From a virus: DNA of 64,000 bases. The notes below the pieces were generated by a model. It made no database searches. It had not been told where the DNA came from and was given only the letters and a program-made list of their open reading frames with translations. Position 1 is the first letter of the stretch; each line of letters starts with the position of its first letter. Where the stretch lies: IMG/VR virus record IMGVR_UViG_3300028392_001993, positions 64,001 to 128,000 of that record; one strand, 5' to 3'. The position numbers were made by a program, and so were the translations under genes. This document shows positions 17,997-34,945 of this stretch, in pieces.

Positions 17997-19020
17997 CAGT
18001 TATACAAGTTGGCAACCCCTTGAAGAAGTCATAGTCGGCCGTGCGTACAGCCCAGACTATTTTGACTTCATCGAGAACGCACAAGTGCGCAATCAGTTAC
18101 AACAAATCCTTTTTGAAACTGAAGAAGATCTTGCTAACTTGCAAAAGACAATAGAAAAGTTTGGTGCTCGAGTATGTAGACCTGACTTGCCTAATCGAGA
18201 TCAGTTTATCCGCGGGCAAATACACGGGCAAGGTGCTCCACTACCTCCGTTAACACCACGTGACTGGCAAATTACCTTGGGTGATAAACTGCTACGTGTG
18301 CTGGCCATGCAGGAACTGGATGGCCTGTGCCGGGAATACGAAACTGCAGGCGGCACTGTTATTAACCCACATGGTCCCACGGGCTGGGATGAAAACTGTA
18401 TTTTAAATCAAGCGTCAGCAAGTTGTATTGTGCGTGTGGGTCGCGATGTGTTCTTTGACAACTCAGACTTCTTGCGCCCAGATCAAACACGCTGGATTGT
18501 GGACAATGTACTGGGTCCTGAATATCGAATCCATGAAGCCATCACTGACGGCCATGGAGATGCTGTGTTTGCTATTCTCAAGCCCGGAGTGTTGCTGAGT
18601 TCCAAGCACGATGTTAACTTGGATCTAGGTCGAGACTTCCCAGGTTGGGACGTATGCAAGATATGGGATAGTTCAATCTGGGCCGCAATGGAAGTGGGCA
18701 AGTTCAAGTACGAGCAAAATCCAGGCGCATGGTATGTGCAAGGACAAACACCCACCCCAGAGTTCACACAGTTTGTGGACACTTATCTAAACAAGTGGAC
18801 TGGTTTTGTTGCTGAAACAGTATTCGATGTCAACTGTTTGGTACTAGACGAAAGCCATGTGATCTTTAGTGCTTACAACAAAGAAGTGTTTGACTACTGC
18901 CGTAAACATCAAATAGAACCCATCATCAGCGAACTGCGGCACAGTTACTTCTGGGACGGTGGTATCAGTTGCTGTACACAAGATATTCGACGTCGCGGTG
19001 GTTTAGAAACATACCTATGA
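17983..19020 (+). CDS. Amidinotransferase (glycine/inosamine-phosphate amidinotransferase, pentein fold)
   Basis: SWQPLEEVIVG, PRD, VRVGRDV, DGHGD (catalytic His/Asp region), FDVN, GGISCCT (catalytic Cys). Confidence 0.85.
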   Translation: MNPINSYTSWQPLEEVIVGRAYSPDYFDFIENAQVRNQLQQILFETEEDLANLQKTIEKFGARVCRPDLPNRDQFIRGQIHGQGAPLPPLTPRDWQITLGDKLLRVLAMQELDGLCREYETAGGTVINPHGPTGWDENCILNQASASCIVRVGRDVFFDNSDFLRPDQTRWIVDNVLGPEYRIHEAITDGHGDAVFAILKPGVLLSSKHDVNLDLGRDFPGWDVCKIWDSSIWAAMEVGKFKYEQNPGAWYVQGQTPTPEFTQFVDTYLNKWTGFVAETVFDVNCLVLDESHVIFSAYNKEVFDYCRKHQIEPIISELRHSYFWDGGISCCTQDIRRRGGLETYL

Positions 19021-20036
19021 AATTGGTAATACCTATTGATAACCAGCACAGTTATCGTAGCATACCACGCAATCAAGATTTAAAACTCAAAATTGCCAAT
19101 CATTGTAATTGGCCCAGTCGAACTCTAGTAATTGATCATGCCGGCAATTGCTTTGTTTGTCAGTGCGAAGCCTGGTTACCCGTCAGTGTTGGTCATATAA
19201 CAGACTTTGATTCGCTTGAAGCTGTTTGGCAATCGCCCACAGCACAGTATCTACAACAAGACATCAACGACAAGAAATTTACACATTGTGCTGTGGATCG
19301 TTGCGGTATAATACATAACCACAACATCTTAGACGAATACACTATCTATATCAATATTGACCCCAGTTGCAATTTAGCCTGTCCAAGTTGTCGCAAAGAC
19401 AGTATAATGATTGCAGATGGTGATGTGTATGAACGCAGACTTGCAGAAGTCAAACATGTGGTTACGTTATTAGAGAATTTTGATCAGCCCACACGTATTG
19501 TCATGAGTGGCAACGGTGATCCATTGGCAAGTGCTATCATGAGACCATTGATAAAACAATTTCGTCCTAGACACAACCAACGTATTAGATTGTTTACTAA
19601 TGGATTGTTATTGGAAAAACAACTAGCGGATAGTACTGTATTAAACAGCATAGATCAGTTTATGTTGAGCATAGATGCAGGCAGTGAGCAGGTGTATGAA
19701 AACGTTCGCAGGCCTGGACGATTTGATGTATTAATGCGTAATTTACAATGGCTCAAACCACTGGGTCGTAATGTGTCATTAAACTTTGTGCTACAGCAGG
19801 CCAACTGGCACGACCTAGAAAACTTTTTACAACTTGCCGAACAATTTGGTTACTGGCCAAACATAACTCGACTGGAGGATTGGAACACCTGGACAGGGTT
19901 TGCAAATCAGGATGTGATAGGCAACTCTGAACATCCTGACCATTTGCTTGCCGTACAAGAACTACGTAGAGTTCATGCCAAGTACTCCACCGCGGGCTGG
20001 GGGTCAAGCCTGCCACTTGATTTTACTAGGGTTTAG
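19017..20036 (+). CDS. Radical SAM enzyme 1 with N-terminal SPASM/Twitch-like module
   Basis: CNWPSRTLVIDHAGNCFVCQC N-terminal module; CNLACPSC (CX3CX2C); SGNGDP; SIDA; ATGA overlap at 19017. Confidence 0.88.
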   Translation: MKLVIPIDNQHSYRSIPRNQDLKLKIANHCNWPSRTLVIDHAGNCFVCQCEAWLPVSVGHITDFDSLEAVWQSPTAQYLQQDINDKKFTHCAVDRCGIIHNHNILDEYTIYINIDPSCNLACPSCRKDSIMIADGDVYERRLAEVKHVVTLLENFDQPTRIVMSGNGDPLASAIMRPLIKQFRPRHNQRIRLFTNGLLLEKQLADSTVLNSIDQFMLSIDAGSEQVYENVRRPGRFDVLMRNLQWLKPLGRNVSLNFVLQQANWHDLENFLQLAEQFGYWPNITRLEDWNTWTGFANQDVIGNSEHPDHLLAVQELRRVHAKYSTAGWGSSLPLDFTRV

Positions 20037-20631
20037 GGTCACCTGGACGATGCCAAGTTGGTTGGATGTGTAGGTGTTTGTGATATAATTTTATATCCTG
20101 ATCTAGGAAGTTTTTTGCCAAATATCCGCGGGCTTCTGGGTATTGTAGTTTAAGGTCATCTAATTGCATTCTCATTGCCTTTTTGTCTTCACCTGCTGTC
20201 CACAGGCGCGGTATATCTTGTGTGATTTGAACTCCGTGTGCATCTAAGAAATTTTTCACTAGTTGTTCATATTTGTAATAACGTTGATCTATAATAAAAA
20301 AAGTAGTTCGATCTAGTATACTGGCAGGAATCATTTGACTAACACTATAACTGTGTTCATCAAACACCGCACTCACAAACAACTTGTTAACACTGGGATT
20401 GTCAAGCAATTCTCGTTGCTGAGTTCTACACAAATATTCCACCACTCCCATGGTATGTCGTTTTTGGGGGTCGCGCAACAATCCAAAAAACTTTAATTGT
20501 GCAAGGTCCACAGTGGGTTTGAATAGATCTTCTTTGATCCATCCTAGATTGTCAAACACATGCTGCCAAGTGGTACAGGCGTTTTTAGCAATAGATATCC
20601 AAGCAAGACGGTTGTTGTGATGAAAGTACAT
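20026..20631 (-). CDS. Sulfotransferase family 2-like protein
   Basis: ISIAKNACTT (5'-PSB-like) and LRDPQKR (3'-PB-like). Confidence 0.6.
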   Translation of the reverse strand: MYFHHNNRLAWISIAKNACTTWQHVFDNLGWIKEDLFKPTVDLAQLKFFGLLRDPQKRHTMGVVEYLCRTQQRELLDNPSVNKLFVSAVFDEHSYSVSQMIPASILDRTTFFIIDQRYYKYEQLVKNFLDAHGVQITQDIPRLWTAGEDKKAMRMQLDDLKLQYPEARGYLAKNFLDQDIKLYHKHLHIQPTWHRPGDPKP

Positions 20632-20632
20632 G

Positions 20633-21898
20633 TTATTTCCACTCCTGATTTAACCAAGGAAACAGTGAGCGCCAGTCGGTTCCTCTGCGGCGATCTATTT
20701 CGTCAAGATAAGCAATTAGTCCTTGAATTTTATCTGTATCTCTGGGTGTGTTGGCCACTTGTTTGGCAATACCCGTCATGTGTTCGCGGGCACTGCGTTC
20801 GTGATGTGTGCGTTCGGGCATGGCCGTAATAATATTCTCAAAGTCTTGATCAAATACTCCTGAGCCAAATATAGCAGGATCTAGTATCAACGGCCAAGTG
20901 GTGGTCATGAAACTGTAGTATATCTGTTGATGTTCACGTCCGGTATTCCAGTCCCTCAAACGTTCCACTAGATCTCTGGTGCGTTTGACTGTGAGTGCGC
21001 TGATTGCACTATTGATACATTGTACCACCCAGGGCAAGGTCATAATGTATTCAAAGTTTGTTTGCCATTCTTTGAGATCAAGCCCCCAACGCACATATTC
21101 TTGTTCAGGCCCCCAAGCATCTAAACTGCTGGATATTTGTACCCCACGTATTTTCTTTTGTTCAACCATGCGACCCAGGCGTTCCATTGTGCGCTGTAGT
21201 CGAGCAGGAGGAACTTTTAGATTGGTAATAAAGTTAAATGTTACATCGGGGTTAGGATGTGTGTCCCAAAATTCCAGGCAAGCTTCTAGTTCAGGTTGAA
21301 AGAAAGGTTCCCCGCCGGCCACTTGAAACTGCTGTATTTGCAAGTAGCGATCTTGATCGTGCAGGTATTGCCAGAACTGCGCTAACATATGATCGTAGTT
21401 GGAATTCTTAGGGGTGATCTTTCCGAAACTGTAATGCTTGCTTTTGAATTCTCCAAAGCGGCGATCTTCTTCTTCCCATTTGCTGGAGAAATGATTGCCA
21501 CAGTACAAACAACTCATGTTACAGGTGTTGTTGAAGTATATCTCTAGTATTGTAGGAACAACTTCTAAGGCTGTGGGATTTGACAGCAATTCCACTGGTG
21601 TGCGCTGTTGATCATGTCCGGAATGTATTTGATACAGTCTATCGCTCATTCCCCCGGCCGCTTCAATCTTTTCACAGTATTGACATCCGCCTTGTGGCCA
21701 CTTGCCTTCAAGCATGAGTTCTCGTGCTGAAATCTTTTCGGGCAAGTTGTGAAAACTTGCAAAATTGTCCGGCGGAATTGTGTATTGATCAGTTCTATGA
21801 CAGCTGGCGCTTTTACCTTGTCCTAGATAGATGGTACTCCAAGACCATTTTAACAAACAGGCTGTGTCTGTTTTGATGGGGAAAAATTTTTGTATCAT
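20633..21898 (-). CDS. Radical SAM enzyme 2 with N-terminal Twitch-like module
   Basis: ACLLKW...SASCH...CQYCEKIE; CNMSCLYC; GGEPF; SLDAWG; ATGA overlap gives a start at 21898. Confidence 0.9.
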   Translation of the reverse strand: MIQKFFPIKTDTACLLKWSWSTIYLGQGKSASCHRTDQYTIPPDNFASFHNLPEKISARELMLEGKWPQGGCQYCEKIEAAGGMSDRLYQIHSGHDQQRTPVELLSNPTALEVVPTILEIYFNNTCNMSCLYCGNHFSSKWEEEDRRFGEFKSKHYSFGKITPKNSNYDHMLAQFWQYLHDQDRYLQIQQFQVAGGEPFFQPELEACLEFWDTHPNPDVTFNFITNLKVPPARLQRTMERLGRMVEQKKIRGVQISSSLDAWGPEQEYVRWGLDLKEWQTNFEYIMTLPWVVQCINSAISALTVKRTRDLVERLRDWNTGREHQQIYYSFMTTTWPLILDPAIFGSGVFDQDFENIITAMPERTHHERSAREHMTGIAKQVANTPRDTDKIQGLIAYLDEIDRRRGTDWRSLFPWLNQEWK

Positions 21899-22668
21899 GA
21901 TGAAGCCCAGGGTAGGTTTGGCCAATTACGGCCATTAGTGTTTGGCAGGTCAAAGCCAAAACTATCAAAATCTATTTCTTTATATCCGGGTATGTAGTTG
22001 TCAACAGCATCTATTACAAGTCTAGCAAATGCCCCATTATTAGCCGCGGTAAAATGATTGTTTAGTTGCACAGGATCGTTTTTATTGATTTGGTGCAGAA
22101 TTTGTTGCTCGGATCCTTCGAGGCCGCCCATGACAATTTTCATCAGCGGAGTGGTGAATACCATACCCGATAATCCCCCAAGATCAGGTGCGCCATTACT
22201 TTCATCATACACAGTAAAATGTACGGTTTTAATTTTAGCAAATTTCTTATCTATTGACTGTATGTGCTGATCAAAAGCATATTGTTGAAAGTCTGCGTCG
22301 TATATGTGTTTAAAAAACAACTGATTGGCACGGCTTTCTTCAGAATTTGTCTGAGGCTGATTTATTGTTTGTTCTAGGTTGTCATTCCACCCGTTGTTTA
22401 TTCTTTGCATGGTTGTGTGACAAAACACAACGGCTTGAACTTGATCCCAGCGATGTATTAAATCGGCCACAGCCCGACTCCACGAATACCACCAACTGCG
22501 CCCGCCAAACCCGTAAACTTCCACATTGCCGTTGTAGTGTTTGATAACGTCTGACACCCAACTTGCTTGGTCAGATCGTAACCACCAGGTTTGATTATCA
22601 AACTTTGGCCGAGACAATCCTGGATGGTGGAAGTCAGCACAAAAACTATCCCCTATGATCACAATCAT
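21895..22668 (-). CDS. SGNH/GDSL-hydrolase-like protein (possible esterase or acyltransferase)
   Basis: N-terminal IIGDSF, GFGGRS, C-terminal NNHF. Confidence 0.55.
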   Translation of the reverse strand: MIVIIGDSFCADFHHPGLSRPKFDNQTWWLRSDQASWVSDVIKHYNGNVEVYGFGGRSWWYSWSRAVADLIHRWDQVQAVVFCHTTMQRINNGWNDNLEQTINQPQTNSEESRANQLFFKHIYDADFQQYAFDQHIQSIDKKFAKIKTVHFTVYDESNGAPDLGGLSGMVFTTPLMKIVMGGLEGSEQQILHQINKNDPVQLNNHFTAANNGAFARLVIDAVDNYIPGYKEIDFDSFGFDLPNTNGRNWPNLPWASS

Positions 22669-24147
22669 TTAACTACAAACCTCGACGCCATATAAGGCTT
22701 CAAAACGATCAGCATCAGCACGATCATTTACCATGGGCTCACCGCGTATGTTAAGACTGGTATTTAACAACATAGGGCATCCTGTCAACACATACCACTT
22801 CTCTAGCAGTTCTCTTATGCCCGATCCATCCCGCGCCACAGTTTGTACTCGGCTGGTGCCATCAACATGACATATAGCAGGAGTAAGGTCAGGCTGGCGA
22901 CACCTAGCGACTGACTGCATATAAGGACTATGATGCCAACCCACTGGCATATCAAAATAGTCATCAACCACCTCAGCCAATATGACCGGGGCAAAGGGTC
23001 TGAATTGTTGTCTACGTTTGATCGCATTTACTTTCTCCTTGATCTCGCTGCCTCTAGGGTCTGCAAAGAGGCTACGGTTTCCGAGTGCGCGGGGGCCGAA
23101 CTCGGCTCTTCCTGATGCCACTCCGACAATTTTGTCACTAAGAAGCCGGTCCAGTAACTGGTTAACAGGATAAACACCTGGAATGCAATGGCCGAGATAA
23201 CCGTCCCGCCAGTTAACTCTACGTCCAAGAGCCAAAGCGGCAGCACCGAGACTGCTACCAGCGTCACCGGGACAAGGCATAATCCATATTTTGTCAAAGT
23301 ATTCTCCTAACATACGGTTGGCTGTACAATTCAATGCAACCCCACCCATATATACCAGATTTTTGCTGAAACCCAGGTTTCTAGCACGAATCATCACTTG
23401 ACGAATAAGATCTTCTGCTACCAGTTGAGCGGCCGCCGCAATATTTTCATTGCTGGCGCCTACTAGGAAATCTGCGCTCATTCCTGTGTGGAAGTTATGT
23501 TTTAGTTGTATATCACGCTCACTAGCAATCACATGCTCACGCATGTCATGATACCATGTGTTGCGACCCCAGGCGGCCATGCCCATTGTGATGTATTCTT
23601 CGTCTAGTGGGTGTAGACCAATGCGGCCGGTGACTGCACTATAGAACAACCCAATGCTGTGCGGATAAACCTGTCTCCATAATCTCTTATACTGCGCCTG
23701 ACCTTTGCGATCATATTCTGCACCCCATATTGATATTGTGTCCCATTCGCCTATTGCGTCTATTACCACCACTGTGGCACGTTCGAATGGGCTGGTTTGA
23801 AAGCCCCCTGCCGCATGACTCAGATGATGATTGTAACTGTGTATCTGCTCAGGTTCAATTTGACCACCCAACTGTTTTTTTAATATCTGCCCTGTGGTAA
23901 GTTTATCCCATTCAATACCTTGGCCTGCGTACCATTGCCTGAATTGTTTGTTCCAAGGACGTTCATAATAGGCCACAATCTCTGGGCCATATTCTGCGAC
24001 TTCGTCTAGCAAACCCTGACAAAAGTCAGCATCATTTTTCTTTTTCGAGTATCGCTCGCTATGACCAGCAAAAAGGATCTCCCCGTCAGGAGAAAGTACT
24101 GTGGCAGCCGCATCGTGAAACCCAGCTGAGATACCTAGGATATTCAT
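22669..24147 (-). CDS. Carbamoyltransferase, NodU/CmcH/TobZ family
   Basis: ILGISAGFHDAAA, HHLSHAA, VIDAIGE, GGVALNC, GRAEFGPRALGNRS, KRRQQFRPFAP, HVDGTSRVQTV, LLNTSLN. Confidence 0.95.
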   Translation of the reverse strand: MNILGISAGFHDAAATVLSPDGEILFAGHSERYSKKKNDADFCQGLLDEVAEYGPEIVAYYERPWNKQFRQWYAGQGIEWDKLTTGQILKKQLGGQIEPEQIHSYNHHLSHAAGGFQTSPFERATVVVIDAIGEWDTISIWGAEYDRKGQAQYKRLWRQVYPHSIGLFYSAVTGRIGLHPLDEEYITMGMAAWGRNTWYHDMREHVIASERDIQLKHNFHTGMSADFLVGASNENIAAAAQLVAEDLIRQVMIRARNLGFSKNLVYMGGVALNCTANRMLGEYFDKIWIMPCPGDAGSSLGAAALALGRRVNWRDGYLGHCIPGVYPVNQLLDRLLSDKIVGVASGRAEFGPRALGNRSLFADPRGSEIKEKVNAIKRRQQFRPFAPVILAEVVDDYFDMPVGWHHSPYMQSVARCRQPDLTPAICHVDGTSRVQTVARDGSGIRELLEKWYVLTGCPMLLNTSLNIRGEPMVNDRADADRFEALYGVEVCS

Positions 24148-24245
24148 TTATAGATAAATGGATCTCGTTTGCGTAGTTCTCGTAGTTTCTTACGATAGCG
24201 TATTTCTAGAGTGATTCTTGACCAAAATCGTTTAATCCAGTTCAT
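24144..24245 (-). CDS. 33-aa basic micro-protein
   Basis: MNWIKRFWSRITLEIRYRKKLRELRKRDPFIYK*; ATGA overlaps at both ends; not in the ORF track. Confidence 0.75.
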   Translation of the reverse strand: MNWIKRFWSRITLEIRYRKKLRELRKRDPFIYK

Positions 24246-25279
24246 TTTAATGCCTTTATCTGTTGTTCTATATAGTCTGGATCGCTCCAGCAATAGGGAT
24301 ATTCTGCTTGTGCAGTACCGGTACGTATGGCTGCAACGTCTAGGTGTTGAGCTAGTTGTGCCCAGATGGCTTGGTAGTCTTCTGTACCAAATGACCTTTG
24401 TAAATCAACTTGCCCGACCTGAGGGTGGCCGATTGTAAGACTTGGTTCAGTTGGGTCGAATCCATTCCGTTCAAGCCATTCTCGAAATTCTGCCAGTTGC
24501 TGGATTTGCCAATGGTATGCGCCGGGATCACGGGCCCATTCAATATCAAAGTCGCCAGCCGCTTGACTCTGTGAGCGTAGCCCAGTCGTACGTAATTCGG
24601 CGACCCTGGAGTCCTTGCCTTCATCTTGAAATACCTCCCAGTGATGCTTGCCCACTGCTTTATTTACGCCCACATATACACCGCCTAGTTTTCTGTTGAT
24701 TGTTTCTATACCAAATAGTTCAAGGTCAGCGTCTTCTAGTTCATATCGTGGCGCCTGTAGCCAACACATCAATTGTGATGGTCTGCGCCATTCTGGTGCT
24801 TGTTTAACCTTGCGCATACTTAACACAAGGCTTTCTAGTTCGTGACACAGCAAGTTTAACTGACGTATGTGCCATCGTGTAACATCATCTGCGGCATCAT
24901 AATGCGGGCTCATTGCGCCTGCTGTGCCCTGCAGGTCTTCAAAGTAACGATGCAACAGATTCATTCGATCGTGATTGATATCTAGATCTGCTTGTATTAC
25001 ATTAGCAGGTGAGAAGAAGTCTTGTATACGATAATCTAATGTACTGGAATTAATTGCATTGATTGATCTATTGATCTGTGTACACAAATAATCTGCCGTT
25101 CTAGTGCTTTCTGTCCAGCCCAGCCAACAGTAGTTTTTTTCTAAATGTAGTCCGGTACGGATGATGTCATTTAATGCAGCCAACCATTTACGACTTAAAC
25201 TGTTATCGTCTATGTCTATGTGTACAGTTAAGATTTCTCGATCTGCCCCGCGCAGATCTATTTCTATTGAATCAAGCAA
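24242..25279 (-). CDS. Conserved hypothetical protein
   Basis: 345 aa; operonic overlaps; no recognisable motif. Confidence 0.7.
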   Translation of the reverse strand: MLDSIEIDLRGADREILTVHIDIDDNSLSRKWLAALNDIIRTGLHLEKNYCWLGWTESTRTADYLCTQINRSINAINSSTLDYRIQDFFSPANVIQADLDINHDRMNLLHRYFEDLQGTAGAMSPHYDAADDVTRWHIRQLNLLCHELESLVLSMRKVKQAPEWRRPSQLMCWLQAPRYELEDADLELFGIETINRKLGGVYVGVNKAVGKHHWEVFQDEGKDSRVAELRTTGLRSQSQAAGDFDIEWARDPGAYHWQIQQLAEFREWLERNGFDPTEPSLTIGHPQVGQVDLQRSFGTEDYQAIWAQLAQHLDVAAIRTGTAQAEYPYCWSDPDYIEQQIKALK

Positions 25280-26561: not shown

Positions 26562-27759
26562 ATTCAATCAAGGCCGCAAATTCAGGTGCTACAAGTGCTA
26601 AATTCTGGTCACGTTTGCGATCCAGGTCGGCTATTTTCATTCTGGTCATAAAGCCATCAGTTGACGCACCACGCATCATAAAGTCTCGAATACGATCAAA
26701 CTCCGATCTGTAAATGGTATCTACAGAATCCAAGTATTCTGCAATGGCCTTTTTAGCCCCATCGGGCAAGCACCCAATTGAGAAATACCAAGCATCGTGC
26801 ATCATATTCCAGTACACAAAGTTAAATGATTCCCGATTCTTTTCCAACCAGGCAGCAATGTCACCTAGATAACGCACATTAAAGATGTTCACAGTGGTGC
26901 ATACTTGCAGTTCAATATTGGAATAGATCTCTTTTAAATCTCTGAATCGATCTAGGTTAGCACACACATCTGTCCACACAGCATTTGAACGTTGATATTC
27001 AAATCTCTCACCCACGTCGTCTAGACTGAATGCTATTTCTACTGTTTTAAAATGCTTCCATATGGCCTCTGCTGCCTCTGGATACTGTGTGCCATTTGTA
27101 TTATAATGTATTTCCACCTGCGGTGCAATACCGCGATCCACAATGCCCTGCAACATGTCAAAGTGTTCCTCAATCATAAAAGGCTCGCCACCGGTGAATT
27201 CTATATAGCGTATGTCATTTACGACCGAGTCAATTTGATCCCAGAATTGAGGATTGTCCCTGGGCCATGCGCCGGCCCGTAGCATTGTGTAAGCGTGTGA
27301 CTTTTTCTGTTCTTCACGCGGCAGCACAGCAATTTCTTCTGCGGCAAATTGACTTGAGCTCCAGGATCCGCATATACGGCATTTGAGATTGCATATATTG
27401 CCCAGCTTGAGATCCAGGAACATCAAGGGCTTGGCATCAGCAGTCCATTCACTTGAGATGCCCATGTGTTTGAGTCTGTCTAGTGTGTGCATGCGTTTGC
27501 TTGTGCGACCCGCACGTTCTTCGTTCCAGCATTTGCGGCATGTTTGTGGTTGTTCACCCGCCAAGAACTGCTGACGCAAACTGCGCATGTGATCACTGTT
27601 TTGTATGTCTTGAAAGCGGGCTGTGCTTAACTCAAACTTGCGGCCGCCATTGTCTACAATTTCGTCGTCGGCCAGACAGCACGGGCGCACAGTACCAATG
27701 GGCGATGCTTCTAGGCTGATCCAAGGTAACACACAAAATTTAGGGTGTGGTAAATTCAT
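26548..27759 (-). CDS. Radical SAM enzyme 4 with N-terminal Twitch-like module
   Basis: FCVLPW...RPCC...CRKCWNEE; CNLKCRIC; TGGEP; SLDD. Confidence 0.9.
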   Translation of the reverse strand: MNLPHPKFCVLPWISLEASPIGTVRPCCLADDEIVDNGGRKFELSTARFQDIQNSDHMRSLRQQFLAGEQPQTCRKCWNEERAGRTSKRMHTLDRLKHMGISSEWTADAKPLMFLDLKLGNICNLKCRICGSWSSSQFAAEEIAVLPREEQKKSHAYTMLRAGAWPRDNPQFWDQIDSVVNDIRYIEFTGGEPFMIEEHFDMLQGIVDRGIAPQVEIHYNTNGTQYPEAAEAIWKHFKTVEIAFSLDDVGERFEYQRSNAVWTDVCANLDRFRDLKEIYSNIELQVCTTVNIFNVRYLGDIAAWLEKNRESFNFVYWNMMHDAWYFSIGCLPDGAKKAIAEYLDSVDTIYRSEFDRIRDFMMRGASTDGFMTRMKIADLDRKRDQNLALVAPEFAALIEYVKT

Positions 27760-29018
27760 TTTAATGCTGCCAATTCAGGTAATGCGTGTTGCCATGATTC
27801 ATTTCTGATGTCATCCAATTCATGTGTTCGGCGCCAGAACGAGTCTATTAACTGTGTGTTATCTGTAGCGTTCATAAAGGCAATGGCGCTCCGAAATCCT
27901 TGTGTGGCACGGCCTAGCGGATCTCTGTCGCTCATCCACGACAAGTGCCGGAGATACTTGTCTTCCAGGCGTTGTTTGTATTCAGCCGGAGCAATGTCTA
28001 TACGATAGTGCGGGGGATCCTGCAGGATGTTTACATTTAAATCCTGTGCGCGAATTAATCCTGCGGCTGTCCATTCCCGGTGAAAGTCCGGCAGGTGCCA
28101 GGCATTTAATATGCTGAGTGTGGGTGAGATATAAAAGTCCACGTCAGGACATGTGGCAATCATTTGGTGGCGGTTTTTGACCACGTCGTACCATCGAGTA
28201 CCTTTGCGTATGTATTCAGCAGGGTGTCCCATGCCGTCCAAACTGGCACCCACTGCCACACTATCAAATTGCCGCCAGTATTCAAATACTGACCGTCCTT
28301 TTAGGTCTGTGTGTGTGAAGTTTGTGTTGTAGATTAATCGTACATCAAAGCGTTTGCGCCGCACTAGTTCTTCTAGGATGTTATAGTGCTCTTCCATCAG
28401 CAAAGGCTCGCCTCCGGCAAAGTAGATCTGCTCTACATAATCCAGGTGCGGCTCAAGTTGAGTCCACATGTCTGTCTCTGTGCGGCCTGCATAGTTAAGA
28501 ACTGTATTGCGATCCTTCCATTCTGGACCTGCTAGTCGTGCTTGATCTTGATACCACTGGCTTGAAAAGATATGCCCGCATGAGCGACATTTTAAATTGC
28601 AGAGATTTGAAAAACGAATATCCCAGTAGGTCATTTCAAATGGGTTTGAATCCAGTTTCTTTACGTGATGCCCGTGATGTTTGTTTGCCGATCGTCGGCC
28701 ACTAAAGAATCCTGACTGTTCCTGTTCATAGCAACGTGTACAGGCGGCATGTGGTGTTTCACTCAGCATGCTTTCACGTAGTTGTTGCATGGGCTGGTCG
28801 CGCCATATTTCCGCCAGAGTGTTGGTTCTACAATTGCCCACAACGCCGGGTTTCATTTCAGCATGACAACAAGGATATGCTTCGCCCGTGGGATATGCGT
28901 GTAAATGAATCCAGGGATAGATACAGAATGTTTTAGAATCTTCTAGTAAGAAACGCTCACGTTCAGTGAGTTCTGTGGCTCGCACTAGATCTGTGCTGTT
29001 ATATTTGTAATTACTCAT
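27756..29018 (-). CDS. Radical SAM enzyme 5 with N-terminal Twitch-like module
   Basis: FCIYPW...YPCC...CTRCYEQE; CNLKCRSC; AGGEP; SLDG. Confidence 0.9.
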   Translation of the reverse strand: MSNYKYNSTDLVRATELTERERFLLEDSKTFCIYPWIHLHAYPTGEAYPCCHAEMKPGVVGNCRTNTLAEIWRDQPMQQLRESMLSETPHAACTRCYEQEQSGFFSGRRSANKHHGHHVKKLDSNPFEMTYWDIRFSNLCNLKCRSCGHIFSSQWYQDQARLAGPEWKDRNTVLNYAGRTETDMWTQLEPHLDYVEQIYFAGGEPLLMEEHYNILEELVRRKRFDVRLIYNTNFTHTDLKGRSVFEYWRQFDSVAVGASLDGMGHPAEYIRKGTRWYDVVKNRHQMIATCPDVDFYISPTLSILNAWHLPDFHREWTAAGLIRAQDLNVNILQDPPHYRIDIAPAEYKQRLEDKYLRHLSWMSDRDPLGRATQGFRSAIAFMNATDNTQLIDSFWRRTHELDDIRNESWQHALPELAALK

Positions 29019-29727: not shown

Positions 29728-30347
29728 GTCATTGAACTTTGTTTAAACCAAAGTCTCCATAAATCGTCGACCAAATTTAGGTCTAATTCCAGATCTAATT
29801 CTAGGTCTAATTTTGCAATTTGATTTAAGTATTGCGTCCTATCAAAGAAGCTGTCAAAAGGAACTGTCAATGAAATATCTTTAAGCATATTGGATATTTC
29901 TGTCAGACATTGATATTCATTATCAAAATCAAGACTATACACTTTGGTTGCTCGATTTTTTAATAAAAATTCCTTGTGCTCTGGGCCAACCTCAATCAAA
30001 ATAACTTTTTCATAGAACTTTTTGCCCCACAATATTTTTTGCGTGTAGTGAGAGTAAAATTCCAATGGATGCCAATTGTCAATTGTCCACAATTCACAAT
30101 CTTCATAATGATAAAAATCAATTGCACCGATGGTGTAACTCAAACGATCTTTTCTTTCTGCTTTTTTCCAGTCTGTGCTGTCCCAGGTCATGTAGCGATT
30201 AAATTTTTCTTGTGCAGTTAATTTTTTTTTATACTCGTCGAGATCTTGTCCTCTAGTGCCTGTAATTGTTTTTTCACTCAATGTCAATGTTTTATACAAC
30301 ATGCTTCCTGCTGACCCTGGCAAATAGATTATGGTTGCTTTTAACAT
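29715..30347 (-). CDS. Hypothetical protein, possible P-loop/sulfotransferase-like fold
   Basis: N-terminal IIYLPGSAGSML; AT-rich. Confidence 0.4.
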   Translation of the reverse strand: MLKATIIYLPGSAGSMLYKTLTLSEKTITGTRGQDLDEYKKKLTAQEKFNRYMTWDSTDWKKAERKDRLSYTIGAIDFYHYEDCELWTIDNWHPLEFYSHYTQKILWGKKFYEKVILIEVGPEHKEFLLKNRATKVYSLDFDNEYQCLTEISNMLKDISLTVPFDSFFDRTQYLNQIAKLDLELDLELDLNLVDDLWRLWFKQSSMTWKK

Positions 30348-30354: not shown

Positions 30355-31686
30355 TTAGATTGTATTGTACCATTCTTTTAGTTCAGGAAATGCTAGGCCA
30401 AAGTCTTTGCCACGACGTTGATCGTACTGTGAATAAAACTGTTTGAAATCATTATGTAATTTAGGCATGTCAAACGCATCAGAGTGCGGAGTCTTGACCA
30501 CATCCAAATAGTCTATTAGACGTTGTGTGTGATTTACTTCGTGTTCATGTATGAATTCCGAATCCGCCCAGTGTGCCAGCCAGGTCTTCAAGCGTTGACC
30601 ATATACTGTGCGCTGTGCATCGGGCAGGACCAGGGGTGATTGGAAACTTGGAAAGCGTAGAATATTTAGTGTGAAACTTATGGCATCACGCCCATATTCC
30701 AGTTTCCAATTCATTATGCATTCCAGCAATTGATCTAGTGTGCTTAAACATAACGCATTGATTGTTGCCATAACATGTATGCCACGGAACTGTCCTGAGT
30801 CTAATAATCGTTCTACATTATTAGCCCAGTCGTCCCAGACGAGCCCGTCACGAATATACTCGGCCTGTGAAGAAATTGCCTCATTTGAGGTGTACAAGTC
30901 AATGGCCATTCCTTGGGTTGAGGCAAGCAATCGGTCAATGTCAATGTCGGTTCCCAGATTACTATTGATAGCAAGGCGTGTGCTACTACGTCCCCGGTTG
31001 TCTCGAAACCAGTCGATGAGTCGCCAAGTGTGTGCGGACATGAGCGGCTCTCCTCCGGTAATTCTAAGTTCCTGGAGGGTATGATGTAGATCACTTTCCC
31101 ACCAGTCAAAAAATGCATCAATATATGGATTAGCCTCCGTGATCTTAAACAACTGGGCACTATCATGGGTATGGGTAAAGTGATTGCGGCCGTCACTAAC
31201 AAGATTGTTGTAGGGTCCGTTACGTCGAATATCATTAACCCAAGTTGTGCTAAATGCAGGGTTGCAGTAACTGCAAGCAAATTGACAAGTGCGATCAAAA
31301 GCAATTTCCAAGGTACGGAGATTGACGTCTTGATCGGGTAAAGTATTTCTAGCCTCATGCAATGCCTCTATAGGATATATCCGTGATTTATACACACGAT
31401 CACTAACAGCGTCGCGGCCCATGTCTTCGATCTTCCAGCAGTACTCACAGCCCGCAGGGCGTTCGCCTGCAAGCATTTTCTCACGGTCCTCTTTCTTTTG
31501 ATCAGTATTGTGCAGTAGCCTAGGGTTGTCCCGGACTCGATCAATATCCACCCGATGGGCCGGAGGGTGGTGACAACTTGTGGTCATACCAGAGCCTAAC
31601 CAAATGGTTGCATTGTACCATTTAGCCGCACAAAAACTTGCAGATAATGTGTCTAATACTGTGTGTCGAAATTCTAGATCATTCAT
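30355..31686 (-). CDS. Radical SAM enzyme 6 with N-terminal Twitch-like module
   Basis: FCAAKW...TSCH...CEYCWKIE; CQFACSYC; TGGEP; ATG 31686 preferred. Confidence 0.9.
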   Translation of the reverse strand: MNDLEFRHTVLDTLSASFCAAKWYNATIWLGSGMTTSCHHPPAHRVDIDRVRDNPRLLHNTDQKKEDREKMLAGERPAGCEYCWKIEDMGRDAVSDRVYKSRIYPIEALHEARNTLPDQDVNLRTLEIAFDRTCQFACSYCNPAFSTTWVNDIRRNGPYNNLVSDGRNHFTHTHDSAQLFKITEANPYIDAFFDWWESDLHHTLQELRITGGEPLMSAHTWRLIDWFRDNRGRSSTRLAINSNLGTDIDIDRLLASTQGMAIDLYTSNEAISSQAEYIRDGLVWDDWANNVERLLDSGQFRGIHVMATINALCLSTLDQLLECIMNWKLEYGRDAISFTLNILRFPSFQSPLVLPDAQRTVYGQRLKTWLAHWADSEFIHEHEVNHTQRLIDYLDVVKTPHSDAFDMPKLHNDFKQFYSQYDQRRGKDFGLAFPELKEWYNTI

Positions 31687-32719
31687 TGATAAATTTAAGT
31701 ACTCGTTGTGGTAGATCAGCCAGTTGTTGGGCTGAGTATTGTCGAAGATGCTGTTGGTTATATTTACATATGGGTTCGGCCGCGCTGAGGAAATCCACCA
31801 AATTACCTTGACATAGTTCTTCAACAACTTGTATTATACGCTGAAATCTGTCAGAACTCAAGTGAATTGAATCAAATGATTCATCGATTATCGAACCAAA
31901 TGTTTTAAATCCTAGATTGTGTAGATCACGATAAAAATTAACATTTGAGAATATCACAAACGGATGCCCTATTGCCAGTGGTTTGGCTGTTTTTTCTGTG
32001 ATAAAAGTATAAGGATAATCAAATATGGTTTCACTGACCACACTGAAGTAAGTGTCAATATAGGGTTCCGGACGAATATAAATCTCTCCCCATTCATTAT
32101 TGAACAATTCGTGCTTGACAAATCTAGTGTCAGGGTTGATATTGGGAGTATAACGTTCTACTTCATACTCACGTGGCAGCAGTCGAACCGGGCGTAAATA
32201 GCTGTCTAAATTGGTCCATAATGCTGAATCTAACAAATTGCGTTGTTCAAGTTCATTTAGCATTTGTACTCTGTGTGGACGACTGCGGCCATTTAAACAC
32301 AAAAAAGTATGGGGCTTGTGAGTCTTTTGAAATATTTCATCTGTGCGTTTGGCTGCCTGCGTATTTTCCTCAAAGCGAAATGGCTGTGTTAAAAAATGCT
32401 CAAACAACATGTGTGGGTATTCCGGGGGCAGGCGGCCGCCTGTGACTATTTTAATTTTGCCCGACAGCACAAGATCTTCTACTCCATACATGCGTATGTG
32501 TTGAACAAATGTTTCAGACCCTTCTGCTGGATTAGAAAAAAATATGCGACATTGATCGACCATGCTTCTAATCCGATCAGCATTTAGTCGCAGTTGTTCC
32601 CGACCTACAATATAAGTAGCACCCGGGATGACCGGGATTGTGTCAAATACGTGGTATGCCCGATCTGCGTAAGGCAACATCATTGGATTTAGTTCGCAAC
32701 GATAGTCCAAGAATAGCAT
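31679..32719 (-). CDS. GT10-like glycosyltransferase, paralogue 3
   Basis: FLCLNGRSRPHR...FSVVSET...FITEKTAKPLAIGHPF...GFKTF...DESFD. Confidence 0.55.
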   Translation of the reverse strand: MLFLDYRCELNPMMLPYADRAYHVFDTIPVIPGATYIVGREQLRLNADRIRSMVDQCRIFFSNPAEGSETFVQHIRMYGVEDLVLSGKIKIVTGGRLPPEYPHMLFEHFLTQPFRFEENTQAAKRTDEIFQKTHKPHTFLCLNGRSRPHRVQMLNELEQRNLLDSALWTNLDSYLRPVRLLPREYEVERYTPNINPDTRFVKHELFNNEWGEIYIRPEPYIDTYFSVVSETIFDYPYTFITEKTAKPLAIGHPFVIFSNVNFYRDLHNLGFKTFGSIIDESFDSIHLSSDRFQRIIQVVEELCQGNLVDFLSAAEPICKYNQQHLRQYSAQQLADLPQRVLKFINE

Positions 32720-34086
32720 TATCGTCTGCTCCAGGATTCACATTCTGTCCACCATCTTTTCATTTCAGGGAAGGTCCGTGAAAAGTCTGTACCGCGGCGT
32801 TGATCATGTTCGCTAAAGAAACGATAAAAGTCTGCCCGGGCCTGGGAATGATCTTGTGCCTGAGCACTACGCATCCAAGCAATGTCACGATCTAATCGTG
32901 CTACTTCGTAGTCTTTGAATCCATTGTACAGGTTGCTGTCTGTGGTTAGGTTTTGACTCATCCAGTCCCGAACTGACTCTAACTTTTGAGCATAGGATTC
33001 TGGGAGTACTTGCAGGCTTTGCCAGGCAGGTTGTCTTAGCACAGGCGTATCAAACCACACACGTTGATATGTTCGACTGTGTCGGCGACGTAGTTCTAGT
33101 ATGCCTTCCAGCAATTGTTGCAAACTGCTCACGCTCAGGTTATTCATTGTTATAATAAACGTCAGGCTGTTGTAACTAGGAACTTCAGTGAGATATTGAT
33201 CTACTCGGCTCCACACTAGATCAAAGTTCATGCCGTGTCGCATGTATTCTGCCTGAGCCCCCCAGCCGTCTAGACTCACATACTGCATAAAGTGTTCTAT
33301 GCGTCCATCGCAAATGGTTTTTAACGAAGTCAAGTAGCGATCAAACAGGCTCTGCTCCACTGAGAAGTTTGATGTAACGTTCAAGTGCAGTTTCTTTGAA
33401 GGATTCTCAATCACATAGTCAAACACTCTATAGGTGTTCCGATCCATCAACGGCTCGCCACCGGTCATTCTAAAGTGTTCTAGAGCAGGGTATAGCGTGG
33501 GCCACCACTTCCAAAATGCTTCTACGTAAGGATTTGTGTCCCGGGCAGGAATAGGGCGATTACGTCCGACGAAATGAGTAGGATCATTATGAATAGTACT
33601 AGTTGGGTAACCACCCCACCGATCAACTTCAGTCTGCCATGTTGAACTAAACTGTGGACTGCAATAACTACAAGCAAGATTGCAAGCATGATTAAAATTA
33701 ACTTCAACATAACTAGGCACAACATCTTCATCTCCTGAGGAATTCTCTATTTGATCAAAATCCACAGCGGCCCAGGGCTCTCCCGAACGGTAATGCCTGT
33801 CGCTGAGTTTGCCCTGGTCTTCCATGTTCCAACAGTAGGAGCATTCCGCAGGGCGTTCCTGCTTTAACATGATCTTGCGCTGTGCTTTTTTGTGTTCTGT
33901 ATTGTGCAAGGCTGCGGGATTAGTTGCTATCGATTCGGGATCAATTTCATGCAAGGGAGGATGATAACAACTATTATTAAGTCCAGTAGGCAAGTGCAGG
34001 CTCACCTGTTTCCATTTGGCCAAACATAGGGCCGGGCCCAGTTGATCTTTCATTTGTTCTGCACTGTATTGGAAATTGCTTTTCAT
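32719..34086 (-). CDS. Radical SAM enzyme 7 with N-terminal Twitch-like module
   Basis: LCLAKW...NSCY...CSYCWNME; CNLACSYC; TGGEP; SLDG. Confidence 0.9.
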   Translation of the reverse strand: MKSNFQYSAEQMKDQLGPALCLAKWKQVSLHLPTGLNNSCYHPPLHEIDPESIATNPAALHNTEHKKAQRKIMLKQERPAECSYCWNMEDQGKLSDRHYRSGEPWAAVDFDQIENSSGDEDVVPSYVEVNFNHACNLACSYCSPQFSSTWQTEVDRWGGYPTSTIHNDPTHFVGRNRPIPARDTNPYVEAFWKWWPTLYPALEHFRMTGGEPLMDRNTYRVFDYVIENPSKKLHLNVTSNFSVEQSLFDRYLTSLKTICDGRIEHFMQYVSLDGWGAQAEYMRHGMNFDLVWSRVDQYLTEVPSYNSLTFIITMNNLSVSSLQQLLEGILELRRRHSRTYQRVWFDTPVLRQPAWQSLQVLPESYAQKLESVRDWMSQNLTTDSNLYNGFKDYEVARLDRDIAWMRSAQAQDHSQARADFYRFFSEHDQRRGTDFSRTFPEMKRWWTECESWSRR

Positions 34087-34105
34087 ATTTTAAACTCGGA
34101 TTGAT

Positions 34106-34945
34106 TTATTTTAAAGTAACAAAGTTCACATGATTTATTACAGAGCCAGGTTGTGTGTTGGGACATTGGCCACACTGCACATGCGGTTTTCCAAAATTAT
34201 CGATAAATTCTAAGAGATCTGAATCGGAGCAATCAGGGGTTAGCCCGGGCACAATATAAGGTGTCCATTGGTTGTAATTATGCGCGGCAACTCTGGTCAC
34301 TGTTTCATCTAATAGACCCGAGGTACTGCACTTGTATATCTTGCCATTGTGTAACAATGGACAAGTTTGTTGAATACATTTATCAAATGCTGTCATTGGG
34401 TCTGAGTTCCATGGCAACATATTATTATAATCATTGCGATATGTTTTGATAAACGTATCAGGACGTTTAACATGGAATCTAAAATTATTGTCAGTGACCC
34501 ATCTGTCTATGCCAAATTCATGTACCGGAGTCCATGCGTATCTTTTTGATATAGTGTCGATTATGCCATTGAGTTCAGGAGTGTCGACATGAACAGTAAT
34601 TTTAAAACTAACATTTCCTAGTTCATACATCAGATCAACGAGTTTTTGATTTTTGGCTAATAATAATCCATTTGTTGTAAATCTAATTTGTGAATTAGGG
34701 AGTAACTGTCTCAGCCCAATCAGCCACTCTTTGCATTCTGGATTGATCAATGGTTCGCCGCCAATGATGCCAAACTCGGGCAACTCAATTCGACTCAACC
34801 AAGCAGAAATCCACTGCTGTCCTTGCTCCCAGGATACGTAGCCTGAATGTTTTAAGTCGCTGTAGTTTGTACAACCCAAGCAAGACAGATTACATACCTG
34901 TGTAATCATGGTCTCTAAGAAAGGCAATGTCATCTTAGGTGACAT
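34106..34945 (-). CDS. Radical SAM enzyme 8 (N-terminal CX3CX2C, C-terminal SPASM-like Cys cluster)
   Basis: CNLSCLGC; GGEPL; TTNGLL; C-terminal CIQQTCPLLHNGKIYKC...CGQCP; start at 34945 or 34933. Confidence 0.88.
   Translation of the reverse strand: MSPKMTLPFLETMITQVCNLSCLGCTNYSDLKHSGYVSWEQGQQWISAWLSRIELPEFGIIGGEPLINPECKEWLIGLRQLLPNSQIRFTTNGLLLAKNQKLVDLMYELGNVSFKITVHVDTPELNGIIDTISKRYAWTPVHEFGIDRWVTDNNFRFHVKRPDTFIKTYRNDYNNMLPWNSDPMTAFDKCIQQTCPLLHNGKIYKCSTSGLLDETVTRVAAHNYNQWTPYIVPGLTPDCSDSDLLEFIDNFGKPHVQCGQCPNTQPGSVINHVNFVTLK

What the first reader, a model, noticed from the sequence alone, without database searches (positions are those of the whole stretch)
19017..34945. Eight radical SAM paralogues, seven with a permuted (N-terminal) SPASM/Twitch module
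All eight have CX3CX2C: CNLACPSC, CNMSCLYC, CNFKCRTC, CNLKCRIC, CNLKCRSC, CQFACSYC, CNLACSYC, CNLSCLGC. In seven, the auxiliary Cys module (CxxP/KW...C(C/H/Y)...CxxC) comes BEFORE the TIM barrel, whereas canonical SPASM/Twitch enzymes (BtrN, anSME, MoaA, PqqE) carry it at the C-terminus. They fall into two subfamilies: PW..CC (three in tandem, 25272-29018) and KW..SC[H/Y] (20633, 30355, 32719). Inference: an expanded, subfunctionalised family, with each member acting on a different sugar position or residue, by analogy to the Twitch-domain cyclitol dehydrogenase BtrN.
Basis: partly seen in the sequence, partly recalled or inferred. Interest (0 to 1): 0.85.

Follow-up and report, generated by a model that had tools for sequence, protein, structure and literature searches.

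The report
Phage array of twitch-first radical SAM enzymes
An uncultured giant (about 350 kb) lake phage carries eight radical SAM iron-sulfur enzymes, six from a catalogued but never-studied family whose extra iron-sulfur domain sits at the front. They are mixed with sugar-building and sugar-transferring genes beside the tail genes, so they most likely edit an unusual sugar decoration.

Summary
All eight ORFs carry CX3CX2C. Six match NCBIfam NF033640 (N_Twi_rSAM, "twitch domain-containing radical SAM protein") above its cut-off. A seventh belongs to a different, compact SPASM-first family. The eighth has no N-terminal module.

The four N-terminal cysteines are invariant or nearly so (at least 90%) across about 100 diverse relatives, and the spacing matches what I recall for BtrN's twitch. 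The architecture is therefore real but already catalogued. I found no paper or solved structure for it.

The window is part of a 178-kb fragment of a roughly 350-kb phage. Five rSAM genes, a carbamoyltransferase and a GT-B transferase form a core present in 52-54 of 54 related phage loci. The other three rSAMs are rare cassettes. The paralogues are old (20-34% identity), and some are closer to bacterial sequences than to each other.

The neighbours are an NDP-sugar epimerase/dehydratase, a DegT aminotransferase, an amidinotransferase with its catalytic Cys and His aligned, and four GT10-like GT-B proteins. Sugar tailoring is the best-supported reading. The chemistry and the acceptor are untested.

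This scan has already found the same family in at least 26 other genomes, with the same conclusion.

The parts
19017..20036 (+). Compact SPASM-first radical SAM enzyme (339 aa from the ATG; 355 aa from the TTG at 18969). It is a different family from NF033640 and an accessory gene.
   Evidence: Pfam SPASM 46-112, then Radical_SAM 129-289. NF033640 scores only 31.9 bits. At least 500 homologues with invariant N-terminal Cys. Present in 2 of 54 related loci.
20633..21925 (-). N_Twi_rSAM, KW..SC[H] type (4 N-terminal Cys: 23, 42, 81, 84). Accessory cassette.
   Evidence: NF033640 229 bits. Cys map. 1 of 54 loci. Inside the KW clade.
22669..24147 (-). Carbamoyltransferase (NodU/CmcH/TobZ-type). 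Core gene.
   Evidence: Pfam Carbam_trans_C E 3e-48 and Carbam_trans_N E 3e-34. 54 of 54 loci.
24242..25279 (-). Conserved 345-aa protein of unknown family, directly downstream of the tandem rSAM trio on the minus strand.
   Evidence: No Pfam, NCBIfam, PHROG or PDB sequence match. 51 of 54 loci, always abutting the 431-aa rSAM.
25272..26567 (-). N_Twi_rSAM, PW..CC type. Core.
   Evidence: NF033640 277 bits. 54 of 54 loci, median 73% identity.
26548..27759 (-). N_Twi_rSAM, PW..CC type. Core.
   Evidence: NF033640 331 bits; Pfam SPASM 9-78 before Radical_SAM 119-275. 54 of 54 loci.
27756..29018 (-). N_Twi_rSAM, PW..CC type. Core. This is the modelled member.
   Evidence: NF033640 387 bits; Pfam SPASM 32-97 at E 4e-12. 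AF2 pLDDT 91.5, pTM 0.90. 54 of 54 loci, median 80% identity.
30355..31686 (-). N_Twi_rSAM, KW..SC[H] type. Core. Likely start is the ATG at 31686; the longest ORF runs to 31827.
   Evidence: NF033640 286 bits from residue 63. 54 of 54 loci. Sister to a Bdellovibrionales sequence, 96% support.
31679..32719 (-). TEK-motif GT-B glycosyltransferase-like protein sitting between the two KW rSAMs.
   Evidence: Paralogue of 16815-17996. A TEK-family gene fills this slot in 52 of 54 loci, at only about 42% median identity.
32719..34086 (-). N_Twi_rSAM, KW..SC[Y] type. Core.
   Evidence: NF033640 322 bits. 54 of 54 loci. 40% identical to a copy in a Bdellovibrionia MAG array.
34106..34960 (-). Short radical SAM enzyme without an N-terminal module. 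Accessory.
   Evidence: Pfam Radical_SAM 19-134; CX3CX2C at residue 23. 2 of 54 loci.
34935..35915 (-). TEK-motif GT-B glycosyltransferase-like paralogue. Accessory.
   Evidence: A4 profile E 9e-85; TEK at residue 228. 0 of 54 loci at 45% identity or more.
15716..17996 (+). Two tandem TEK-motif GT-B glycosyltransferase-like genes (15716-16855 and 16815-17996).
   Evidence: Paralogy. AF2 of the 393-aa protein gives pLDDT 83. All top 50 structural matches are GT-B transferases; the best is H. pylori alpha-1,3-fucosyltransferase at Z 13.8.
17983..19020 (+). Amidinotransferase (AGAT/StrB1/HsvA/SxtG type).
   Evidence: PDB sequence hits: AGAT E 7e-15, StrB1 E 7e-11. The catalytic Cys (GGxxC) and His align. 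A homologue (32% identity, E 3e-51) sits inside the Bdellovibrionia rSAM array. 39 of 54 loci.
11327..13349 (+). NAD-dependent NDP-sugar epimerase/dehydratase (11327-12298) and DegT/DnrJ/EryC1 aminotransferase (12261-13349).
   Evidence: Pfam PF01370 E 1e-43; PF01041 E 7e-57.

Best explanation
The region is part of a phage-encoded glycan-building and glycan-tailoring island of about 28 kb. It runs co-directionally into the baseplate and tail genes of a roughly 350-kb uncultured freshwater phage.

Six of the eight radical SAM genes are members of NCBIfam NF033640. Their build is an N-terminal twitch-type domain whose four conserved Cys (C-x17-18-C-x~40-CxxC) most likely hold a fully ligated auxiliary [4Fe-4S] cluster. 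This is followed by a partial TIM barrel with the CX3CX2C SAM cluster and a helical C-terminal domain.

Inferred mechanism: each enzyme reductively cleaves SAM, and the 5'-deoxyadenosyl radical abstracts a hydrogen atom from a sugar C-H. The auxiliary cluster then takes or returns the electron. The result would be oxygen-independent oxidation, epimerisation, deoxygenation or decarboxylation at a position specific to each paralogue.

Inferred pathway: the substrate sugar is made by the dehydratase/epimerase and DegT aminotransferase and transferred by GT10-like GT-B enzymes. It is further guanidinylated by the amidinotransferase and carbamoylated by the carbamoyltransferase. The acceptor is probably a virion (tail or baseplate) component.

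Shown here: family membership, domain order, Cys conservation, gene context, and the core-versus-cassette structure. Inferred: cluster binding, a sugar substrate, the chemistry, and the acceptor. The confidence of 0.5 is for the whole statement: about 0.9 for family and architecture, about 0.5 for sugar tailoring, and lower for the virion as acceptor.
For: - Family and architecture. The AF2 model is confident as one unit (pLDDT 91.5, pTM 0.90). Its core matches the twitch/SPASM enzymes BlsE (Z 13.6), anSME (13.2), CteB (13.0) and DesII (12.8).
- Sugar context in the window: epimerase/dehydratase and DegT; carbamoyltransferase; amidinotransferase with catalytic residues aligned; four GT-B proteins with a TEK motif.
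- Fixed linkage: five rSAMs plus the carbamoyltransferase occur in 54 of 54 related loci, and a TEK gene sits between the two KW rSAMs in 52 of 54.
- Variable cassettes and fast-evolving transferases resemble surface-glycan loci.
- Every long ORF from the baseplate hub (63944) to 20026 lies on the minus strand.
- Complete relatives hold 6-10 copies each, plus two IscA-type Fe-S carrier genes.
Against: - No member of NF033640 has been characterised, so nothing ties the family to sugars directly.
- Most SPASM/twitch enzymes act on peptides, and the peptide-modifying anSME, CteB and SuiB tie with the sugar-modifying BlsE and DesII in the fold search.
- A Bdellovibrionia MAG contig with 15 copies carries Asp/Asn beta-hydroxylase-family and 2OG oxygenase genes rather than recognisable sugar genes.
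- The family also occurs as a single gene in ordinary chromosomal context with no sugar genes nearby.
- No lipid-carrier, flippase or polymerase genes were recognised, and many neighbours have no family at all.
- I could not read model coordinates, so the geometry of the four Cys and the distance between the clusters were not measured.
Confidence: 0.5

Rival explanations
1. The rSAMs modify a protein or peptide, for example a virion protein such as the neighbouring 4770-aa giant protein. Possible reactions are epimerisation, cross-linking or formylglycine-type oxidation, as most SPASM/twitch enzymes perform.
For: anSME, CteB, SuiB, SkfB and EpeE are among the tied best structural matches. The Bdellovibrionia array carries two Asp/Asn beta-hydroxylase-family genes and a sulfatase-family gene. 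Giant proteins lie next to rSAM pairs in two phage contexts.
Against: No RRE/PqqD-like domain and no precursor-peptide genes were seen. Intergenic gaps are tiny. The rSAMs are interleaved with GT-B transferases and sugar-nucleotide genes.
Confidence: 0.15
2. The island hypermodifies phage DNA with an elaborate sugar, as in T4 glucosyl-hmC but with radical tailoring.
For: The TEK-family model matches the T4 beta- and alpha-glucosyltransferases nearly as well as the fucosyltransferase (Z 12.9 against 13.8). ThyX lies close by.
Against: No ThyA-family pyrimidine hydroxymethylase in this record or in five relatives that are 95-100% complete. No TGT/DpdA in this half-genome. The island sits in the structural-gene block.
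Confidence: 0.07
3. The island makes a diffusible aminoglycoside-like small molecule, for example to block competing phages or to act on the host.
For: The enzyme set recalls aminoglycoside pathways: a StrB1-like amidinotransferase, a TobZ-family carbamoyltransferase, a DegT aminotransferase, GT-B transferases and BtrN-like twitch rSAMs.
Against: No DHQ-synthase/2-deoxy-scyllo-inosose synthase and no inositol-1-phosphate synthase in this record or in four complete relatives. No export or resistance genes were recognised. The island lies among late structural genes.
Confidence: 0.08
4. The glycan is made, but its target is the host cell surface (LPS or capsule remodelling during infection, for example to block superinfection) rather than the virion.
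For: The same sugar context as in the best explanation. Cellular members occur in Bdellovibrionia, Leptospiraceae and Verrucomicrobiota genomes, next to a sulfatase-family gene and LpxO-family-like hydroxylases.
Against: No lipid-carrier transferases, flippases or polymerases were recognised. The island is co-oriented with the baseplate genes.
Confidence: 0.12

Closest known systems
NCBIfam NF033640, N_Twi_rSAM ('twitch domain-containing radical SAM protein')
   Same: Six ORFs score 229-387 bits (cut-off 170) over the full 398-position model. They share the N-terminal 4-Cys module, CX3CX2C, GGEP, and the NxN and AEYxRxG motifs.
   Different: Nothing differs in architecture; they are members. 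The family has no assigned function, no structure and no paper in the searchable library. New here are the phage setting, the copy number (9 over the cut-off in 178 kb) and the fixed linkage to sugar genes.
BtrN (butirosin 2-deoxy-scyllo-inosamine dehydrogenase), the prototype twitch rSAM
   Same: It carries one auxiliary [4Fe-4S] cluster on four Cys. From my own recall of BtrN (C169, C187, C232, C235), its spacing is C-x17-C-x44-CxxC, close to the C-x17-18-C-x~40-CxxC seen here. It has a sugar-like substrate.
   Different: In BtrN the twitch follows the barrel; here it precedes it. There is no significant sequence match, and BtrN was not among the listed structural matches. The proteins here are 150-200 residues longer and have a helical C-terminal domain.
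BlsE and DesII (radical SAM enzymes acting on nucleotide-linked sugars)
   Same: Among the best structural matches to the core: BlsE Z 13.6, rmsd 3.7 over 222 residues; DesII Z 12.8. From my own knowledge, DesII's substrate is a TDP-4-amino-4,6-dideoxy sugar, the kind a dehydratase plus a DegT aminotransferase makes, and both gene types are present here.
   Different: Only the core aligns. They tie with the peptide-modifying anSME and CteB. Sequence identity is 13-15%. Domain order differs.
GT10 alpha-1,3-fucosyltransferase (H. pylori FucT), for the interleaved TEK-family proteins
   Same: GT-B fold, Z 13.8, 270 residues aligned. An invariant ET...TEK motif; from recall, GT10 enzymes share a TEK nucleotide-sugar-binding motif.
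   Different: No Pfam PF00852 hit, even at E<=1, in 34 members. 9% identity. T4 beta-glucosyltransferase is within 1 Z unit.

Membership tests
NCBIfam NF033640 N_Twi_rSAM | Whole-protein HMM score at or above the curated cut-off (170 bits) | tested here: met
   Six ORFs score 229, 277, 331, 387, 286 and 322 bits. The 355-aa (31.9 bits) and 284-aa (32.6 bits) ORFs do not meet it and are not filed here.
NCBIfam NF033640 N_Twi_rSAM | N-terminal twitch-type Cys module placed before the CX3CX2C core | tested here: met
   C32, C93 and C96 are invariant and C50/51 is conserved at 90% or more, upstream of C140/144/147, in 6 paralogues and 105 diverse sequences. The same pattern occurs in 34 of 34 phage and bacterial copies.
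NCBIfam NF033640 N_Twi_rSAM | The auxiliary module actually binds a [4Fe-4S] cluster | not testable with these tools
   Needs Fe/S quantification, EPR or Mossbauer on reconstituted protein. Model coordinates were not readable, so not even Cys geometry was measured.
SPASM/twitch domain (Pfam PF13186) | Pfam match above the gathering score (21.5 bits) | tested here: met
   420-aa: 46.7 bits, residues 32-97. 403-aa: 29.0 bits, residues 9-78. 355-aa: 27.4 bits, residues 46-112. All lie N-terminal to Radical_SAM. The other four N-terminal modules are recognised only through NF033640.
SPASM/twitch domain (Pfam PF13186) | Domain located C-terminal to the radical SAM barrel (the canonical order) | tested here: not met
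   The domain precedes the barrel in seven ORFs. This is the catalogued peculiarity of NF033640.
BtrN-type sugar or cyclitol dehydrogenase | Sequence or structural relationship closer than to other rSAM families | tested here: inconclusive
   No PDB sequence hit for the single protein. The profile hits only generic cores. BtrN is not among the 50 listed structural matches, which are all tied at Z 11-13.6.
Housekeeping rSAMs (MoaA, QueE, NrdG) | Score at or above the family cut-off | tested here: not met
   MoaA reaches at most 39.5 bits against a cut-off of 284. NrdG2 reaches at most 26.8 against 131. QueE reaches at most 24 against 260.
GT-B glycosyltransferases, GT10-like (TEK family: 15716-16855, 16815-17996, 31679-32719, 34935-35915) | GT-B two-Rossmann fold | tested here: met
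   AF2 pLDDT 83, pTM 0.85. All 50 best VIA matches are GT-B enzymes. FucT gives Z 13.8, rmsd 4.8, 270 aligned.
GT-B glycosyltransferases, GT10-like (TEK family) | Pfam Glyco_transf_10 (PF00852) match | tested here: not met
   No Pfam family at E<=1 in any of 34 members. Only the TEK motif and a chance-level Atlas lead (score 0.78) point to GT10.
Amidinotransferase (AGAT/StrB1 type), ORF 17983-19020 | Sequence homology, with the catalytic Cys and His conserved | tested here: met
   AGAT E 7e-15, HsvA E 2.5e-12, StrB1 E 7e-11, SxtG E 5e-10. The query 'GGISC' aligns with AGAT 'GGFHC', and 'GHGDAVF' aligns with 'MHIDATF'. That these are the catalytic residues is from my recall of AGAT.

The most novel reading that the evidence does not exclude
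NF033640 enzymes are a large, unexplored class of oxygen-independent carbohydrate-editing radical enzymes. Giant phages would use fixed sets of them, with swappable GT-B and rSAM cassettes, to build a hypervariable, guanidinylated and carbamoylated glycan on the virion. This would be a phage counterpart of O-antigen diversity, made by chemistry not yet described for any virus.
Probability: 0.3. Interest if true: 0.8.

Novelty: new member of a known kind. Interest (0 to 1): 0.55.

Why it matters
The family is very large: about 5,700 clusters (at 50% identity) at E<=1e-30, including tandem-fused forms. It recurs in giant phages at 6-10 copies per genome, yet it has no known substrate, reaction or structure.

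This locus gives a concrete, testable setting. A five-rSAM core is fixed next to identifiable sugar enzymes. The same region also has a dehydratase/epimerase and aminotransferase that suggest the class of substrate, and amidino- and carbamoyl-transferases that suggest what the product carries. Cultured phages with related clusters (Vibrio phages K566 and K567) offer an experimental entry point.

If the product is a virion glycan, it bears on phage host recognition and on how phages evade recognition. If not, the family still represents a large body of unassigned radical chemistry.

The finding is not new to this scan, which has reported the same family in at least 26 other genomes.

Tried and rejected
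- Megablast of the 16-kb region against 50,697 phage records found no match. tblastn found only Vibrio phages K566/K567 (4 places each) and Ralstonia phage RsoM2USA, at 23-25% identity.
- Literature searches for 'N-terminal twitch', 'N-terminal SPASM', 'twitch domain-containing radical SAM' and 'radical SAM' with 'jumbo phage' or 'phage' turned up nothing on this family.
- The PDB sequence search with the single protein found no hit. The profile hit only generic rSAM cores, best 8VPO at E 7e-9.
- 'Relatives' cannot be drawn for a virus record.
- Pfam, NCBIfam and PHROGs gave nothing for most neighbours: 20026-20631, 21895-22668, 24242-25279, 29011-29727, 29715-30347, 35908-36741, 36735-37661, 37967-39548 and 39913-40902.
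- The promoter and terminator scan was uninformative; counts were near shuffled expectation.
- The careful phylogeny did not finish. The quick tree has many long branches, and only the KW clade and a few pairs are well supported.
- I considered and set aside a recent in-phage gene expansion (paralogues share 20-34% identity and interleave with bacterial sequences) and housekeeping rSAM roles (all far below cut-offs).

Full report
**What the window is.** The window is bases 64001-128000 of a 178-kb IMG/VR virus record that CheckV rates 51% complete.
- Close relatives of the 420-aa rSAM (76-92% identity) occur on 215 viral contigs. Several are 342-353 kb, and one has terminal repeats.
- PHROGs identifies a baseplate hub, a baseplate wedge and a virion protein at 40915-63944. 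A 4770-aa protein with FG-GAP repeats lies among them.
- Every long ORF from 63944 down to 20026 is on the minus strand.
- The finding therefore lies in a giant uncultured phage, directly downstream of the tail and baseplate block. I take the source metagenomes to be freshwater from their IMG sample numbers; this was not checked.

**Checking the observation.**
- Six score 229-387 bits on NCBIfam NF033640, N_Twi_rSAM ('twitch domain-containing radical SAM protein', cut-off 170), over the whole model.
- Pfam SPASM matches the N-terminus of the 420-aa protein (residues 32-97, E 4e-12) and of the 403-aa and 355-aa proteins, each time before the Radical_SAM match.
- C-terminal SPASM regions of StsB, NirJ2 and others align to residues 31-108. 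The module is therefore homologous to SPASM/twitch and sits in the opposite order.
- In an alignment of the six paralogues (20-28% identity to the 420-aa ORF), C32, C51, C93, C96, C140, C144 and C147 are invariant, as are GGEP and several other motifs.
- In 105 diverse sequences, C32, C93 and C96 remain invariant and C50/51 is at 90% or more. All 34 copies from phages and bacteria that I examined show C-x17-18-C(C)-x~40-CxxC.
- From my recall of BtrN (C169, C187, C232, C235), that is the twitch spacing.
- The 355-aa ORF (339 aa from the ATG at 19017) is not an NF033640 member. It belongs to a separate SPASM-first family of about 340 aa, with at least 500 homologues and its own invariant N-terminal cysteines.
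- The 284-aa ORF has no N-terminal module.

**Structure.**
- AlphaFold2 with a 105-sequence alignment gives a confident single-unit model, pLDDT 91.5 and pTM 0.90.
- It has a beta-hairpin plus helices at residues 34-101, a linker helix at 107-121, a barrel from residue 131, and a helical C-terminal domain.
- The core matches BlsE (Z 13.6), anSME (13.2), CteB (13.0), DesII (12.8), SuiB, viperin and MoaA. These are effectively tied.
- The fold search therefore places the core among twitch/SPASM and related rSAMs, but it cannot separate sugar from peptide substrates.
- No solved structure matches by sequence. I could not read coordinates, so cluster geometry is unmeasured.

**Is it known?** Yes, as a catalogue entry: NF033640. 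I found no paper on it in the searchable library.
- The family is very large. A profile of the six paralogues finds 19,707 representative clusters at E<=1e-3 and 5,668 at E<=1e-30. Many are 800-1200-aa proteins with two or three matched stretches.
- This scan has already reported the family in at least 26 other genomes. Follow-ups there reached the same closest-known family and the same tentative sugar reading. Those are leads, not evidence.

**Copy number and history.**
- This half-genome has 9 matches over the cut-off and 8 weaker rSAM matches.
- Five relatives that are 95-100% complete have 6-10 over the cut-off each.
- The paralogues share only 21-34% identity.
- In a quick maximum-likelihood tree, the KW..SC[H/Y] type is a clade with 100% support. 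It also holds bacterial and other-phage sequences.
- The window's 30355 copy is sister to a Bdellovibrionales MAG sequence (96% support). The 32719 copy falls in another subclade with cellular and Leptospiraceae sequences.
- The paralogues are therefore old orthologous groups, not a recent expansion within this phage.
- A Bdellovibrionia MAG has about 23 copies over the cut-off, 15 of them on one 56-kb contig. Whether that contig is cellular was not established.
- A 420-kb contig with ordinary chromosomal neighbours carries a single copy.

**Core and cassettes.** I compared 54 related loci that had full 10-kb flanks.
- Present in 54 of 54 at 62-80% identity: the carbamoyltransferase, the three tandem PW..CC rSAMs and the two KW rSAMs.
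- Present in 51 of 54: the unknown 345-aa gene. Present in 39 of 54: the amidinotransferase.
- Present in only 0-4 of 54: the 355-aa, 430-aa and 284-aa rSAMs and several small ORFs.
- The slot between the two KW rSAMs holds a TEK-family gene in 52 of 54 loci, but at only about 42% median identity to the window's copy.
- Other slots gain TEK genes (21 and 17 loci) or extra rSAMs (9 and 6 loci).
- The pattern is a conserved tailoring backbone with fast-evolving or swappable transferases. This resembles surface-polysaccharide loci.

**Neighbours.**
- Upstream on the plus strand lie an NAD-dependent NDP-sugar epimerase/dehydratase and a DegT/DnrJ/EryC1 aminotransferase.
- ORF 17983-19020 is an amidinotransferase: AGAT E 7e-15, HsvA, StrB1 E 7e-11, SxtG. 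Its GGxxC cysteine and a histidine align with AGAT's catalytic residues. It has a 32%-identical homologue inside the Bdellovibrionia array.
- Four paralogous proteins without any Pfam match share an invariant ET...TEK motif.
- The AF2 model of one of them (pLDDT 83) matches only GT-B glycosyltransferases. The best is H. pylori alpha-1,3-fucosyltransferase at Z 13.8, and T4 beta-glucosyltransferase is within 1 Z unit.
- Complete relatives carry two IscA-type Fe-S carrier genes each and no flavodoxin.

**Best explanation.** The best-supported reading is a phage glycan pathway in which NF033640 enzymes perform oxygen-independent radical tailoring of sugars.
- Each enzyme would abstract a hydrogen atom via the 5'-deoxyadenosyl radical, with electron transfer via the N-terminal cluster. 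Each paralogue would have its own position or reaction.
- The product would probably carry amino, guanidino and carbamoyl groups and would probably be placed on a virion component.
- Shown: family, architecture, conservation and linkage. Inferred: cluster binding, substrate class, chemistry and acceptor.

**Rivals.**
- Peptide or protein modification remains open. The structural ties include peptide-modifying enzymes, and hydroxylases sit in the bacterial array.
- DNA glycosylation is weakened by the absence of any ThyA-family hydroxymethylase in six records, and of TGT in this record.
- An aminocyclitol antibiotic is weakened by the absence of DHQS/DOIS-type and inositol-phosphate synthases.
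- Host-surface remodelling cannot be separated from virion decoration with these tools.

**Verdict.** These are new members of a catalogued, uncharacterised family in a setting useful for experiments, and the scan has found the same thing many times on other DNA.

Noticed in passing
window 43441-57753 (-): A 4770-aa ORF between the baseplate wedge gene and the virion-protein genes. Its only Pfam signal is FG-GAP repeats near residue 2640. Another phage contig (L094) has a 3564-aa protein a few genes upstream of two N_Twi_rSAM genes, so giant proteins and these rSAMs may travel together.
   Followed up: partly
L091/L092 (G006 contig C192, Bdellovibrionia MAG JAUHWN010000007.1): Fifteen NF033640 genes lie within about 33 kb of one 56-kb contig, and about 23 in the MAG overall. 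They sit with two Asp/Asn beta-hydroxylase-family genes, a 2OG oxygenase-like protein, a sulfatase-family protein and an amidinotransferase homologue. Whether the contig is bacterial or viral was not settled.
   Followed up: partly
representative proteins P0121-P0141: Many relatives are 800-1200-aa proteins with two or three full-length matches to the family profile. These are natural tandem fusions of N_Twi_rSAM units.
   Followed up: no
G001-G004 (complete relatives), e.g. G001:C1:22998-23303 and 307989-308291: Each phage genome that is 97-100% complete encodes two A-type (IscA/ErpA-like, PF01521) Fe-S carrier proteins and no flavodoxin. This fits a phage that supports its own large set of Fe-S enzymes.
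   Followed up: partly
window 37967-38755 and 38742-39548 (-): Two adjacent paralogous ORFs (23% identity, E 5e-10) with no known family, conserved in 45-48 of 54 related loci. They lie between the rSAM island and the virion genes.
   Followed up: no
window 10310-11212 (-): A 300-aa ORF with a NUMOD3 motif, probably a homing endonuclease. It is the only minus-strand gene between ThyX (9670-10338) and the sugar genes.
   Followed up: no
window 3949-5031 and 5714-7030 (+): A MoxR-type AAA ATPase, followed by a DUF2201 protein with a metallopeptidase-like domain and a VWA domain. PHROGs labels the second protein an HNH endonuclease, which disagrees with Pfam.
   Followed up: no
L081 (Vibrio phage K566, OZ196521.1, about 161.5-178.9 kb): A cultured 255-kb Vibrio phage carries five divergent N-terminal-Cys rSAM genes in a cluster annotated only as 'radical SAM domain-containing' or 'hypothetical'. 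The five form their own clade (95% support). This is a possible experimental model.
   Followed up: partly
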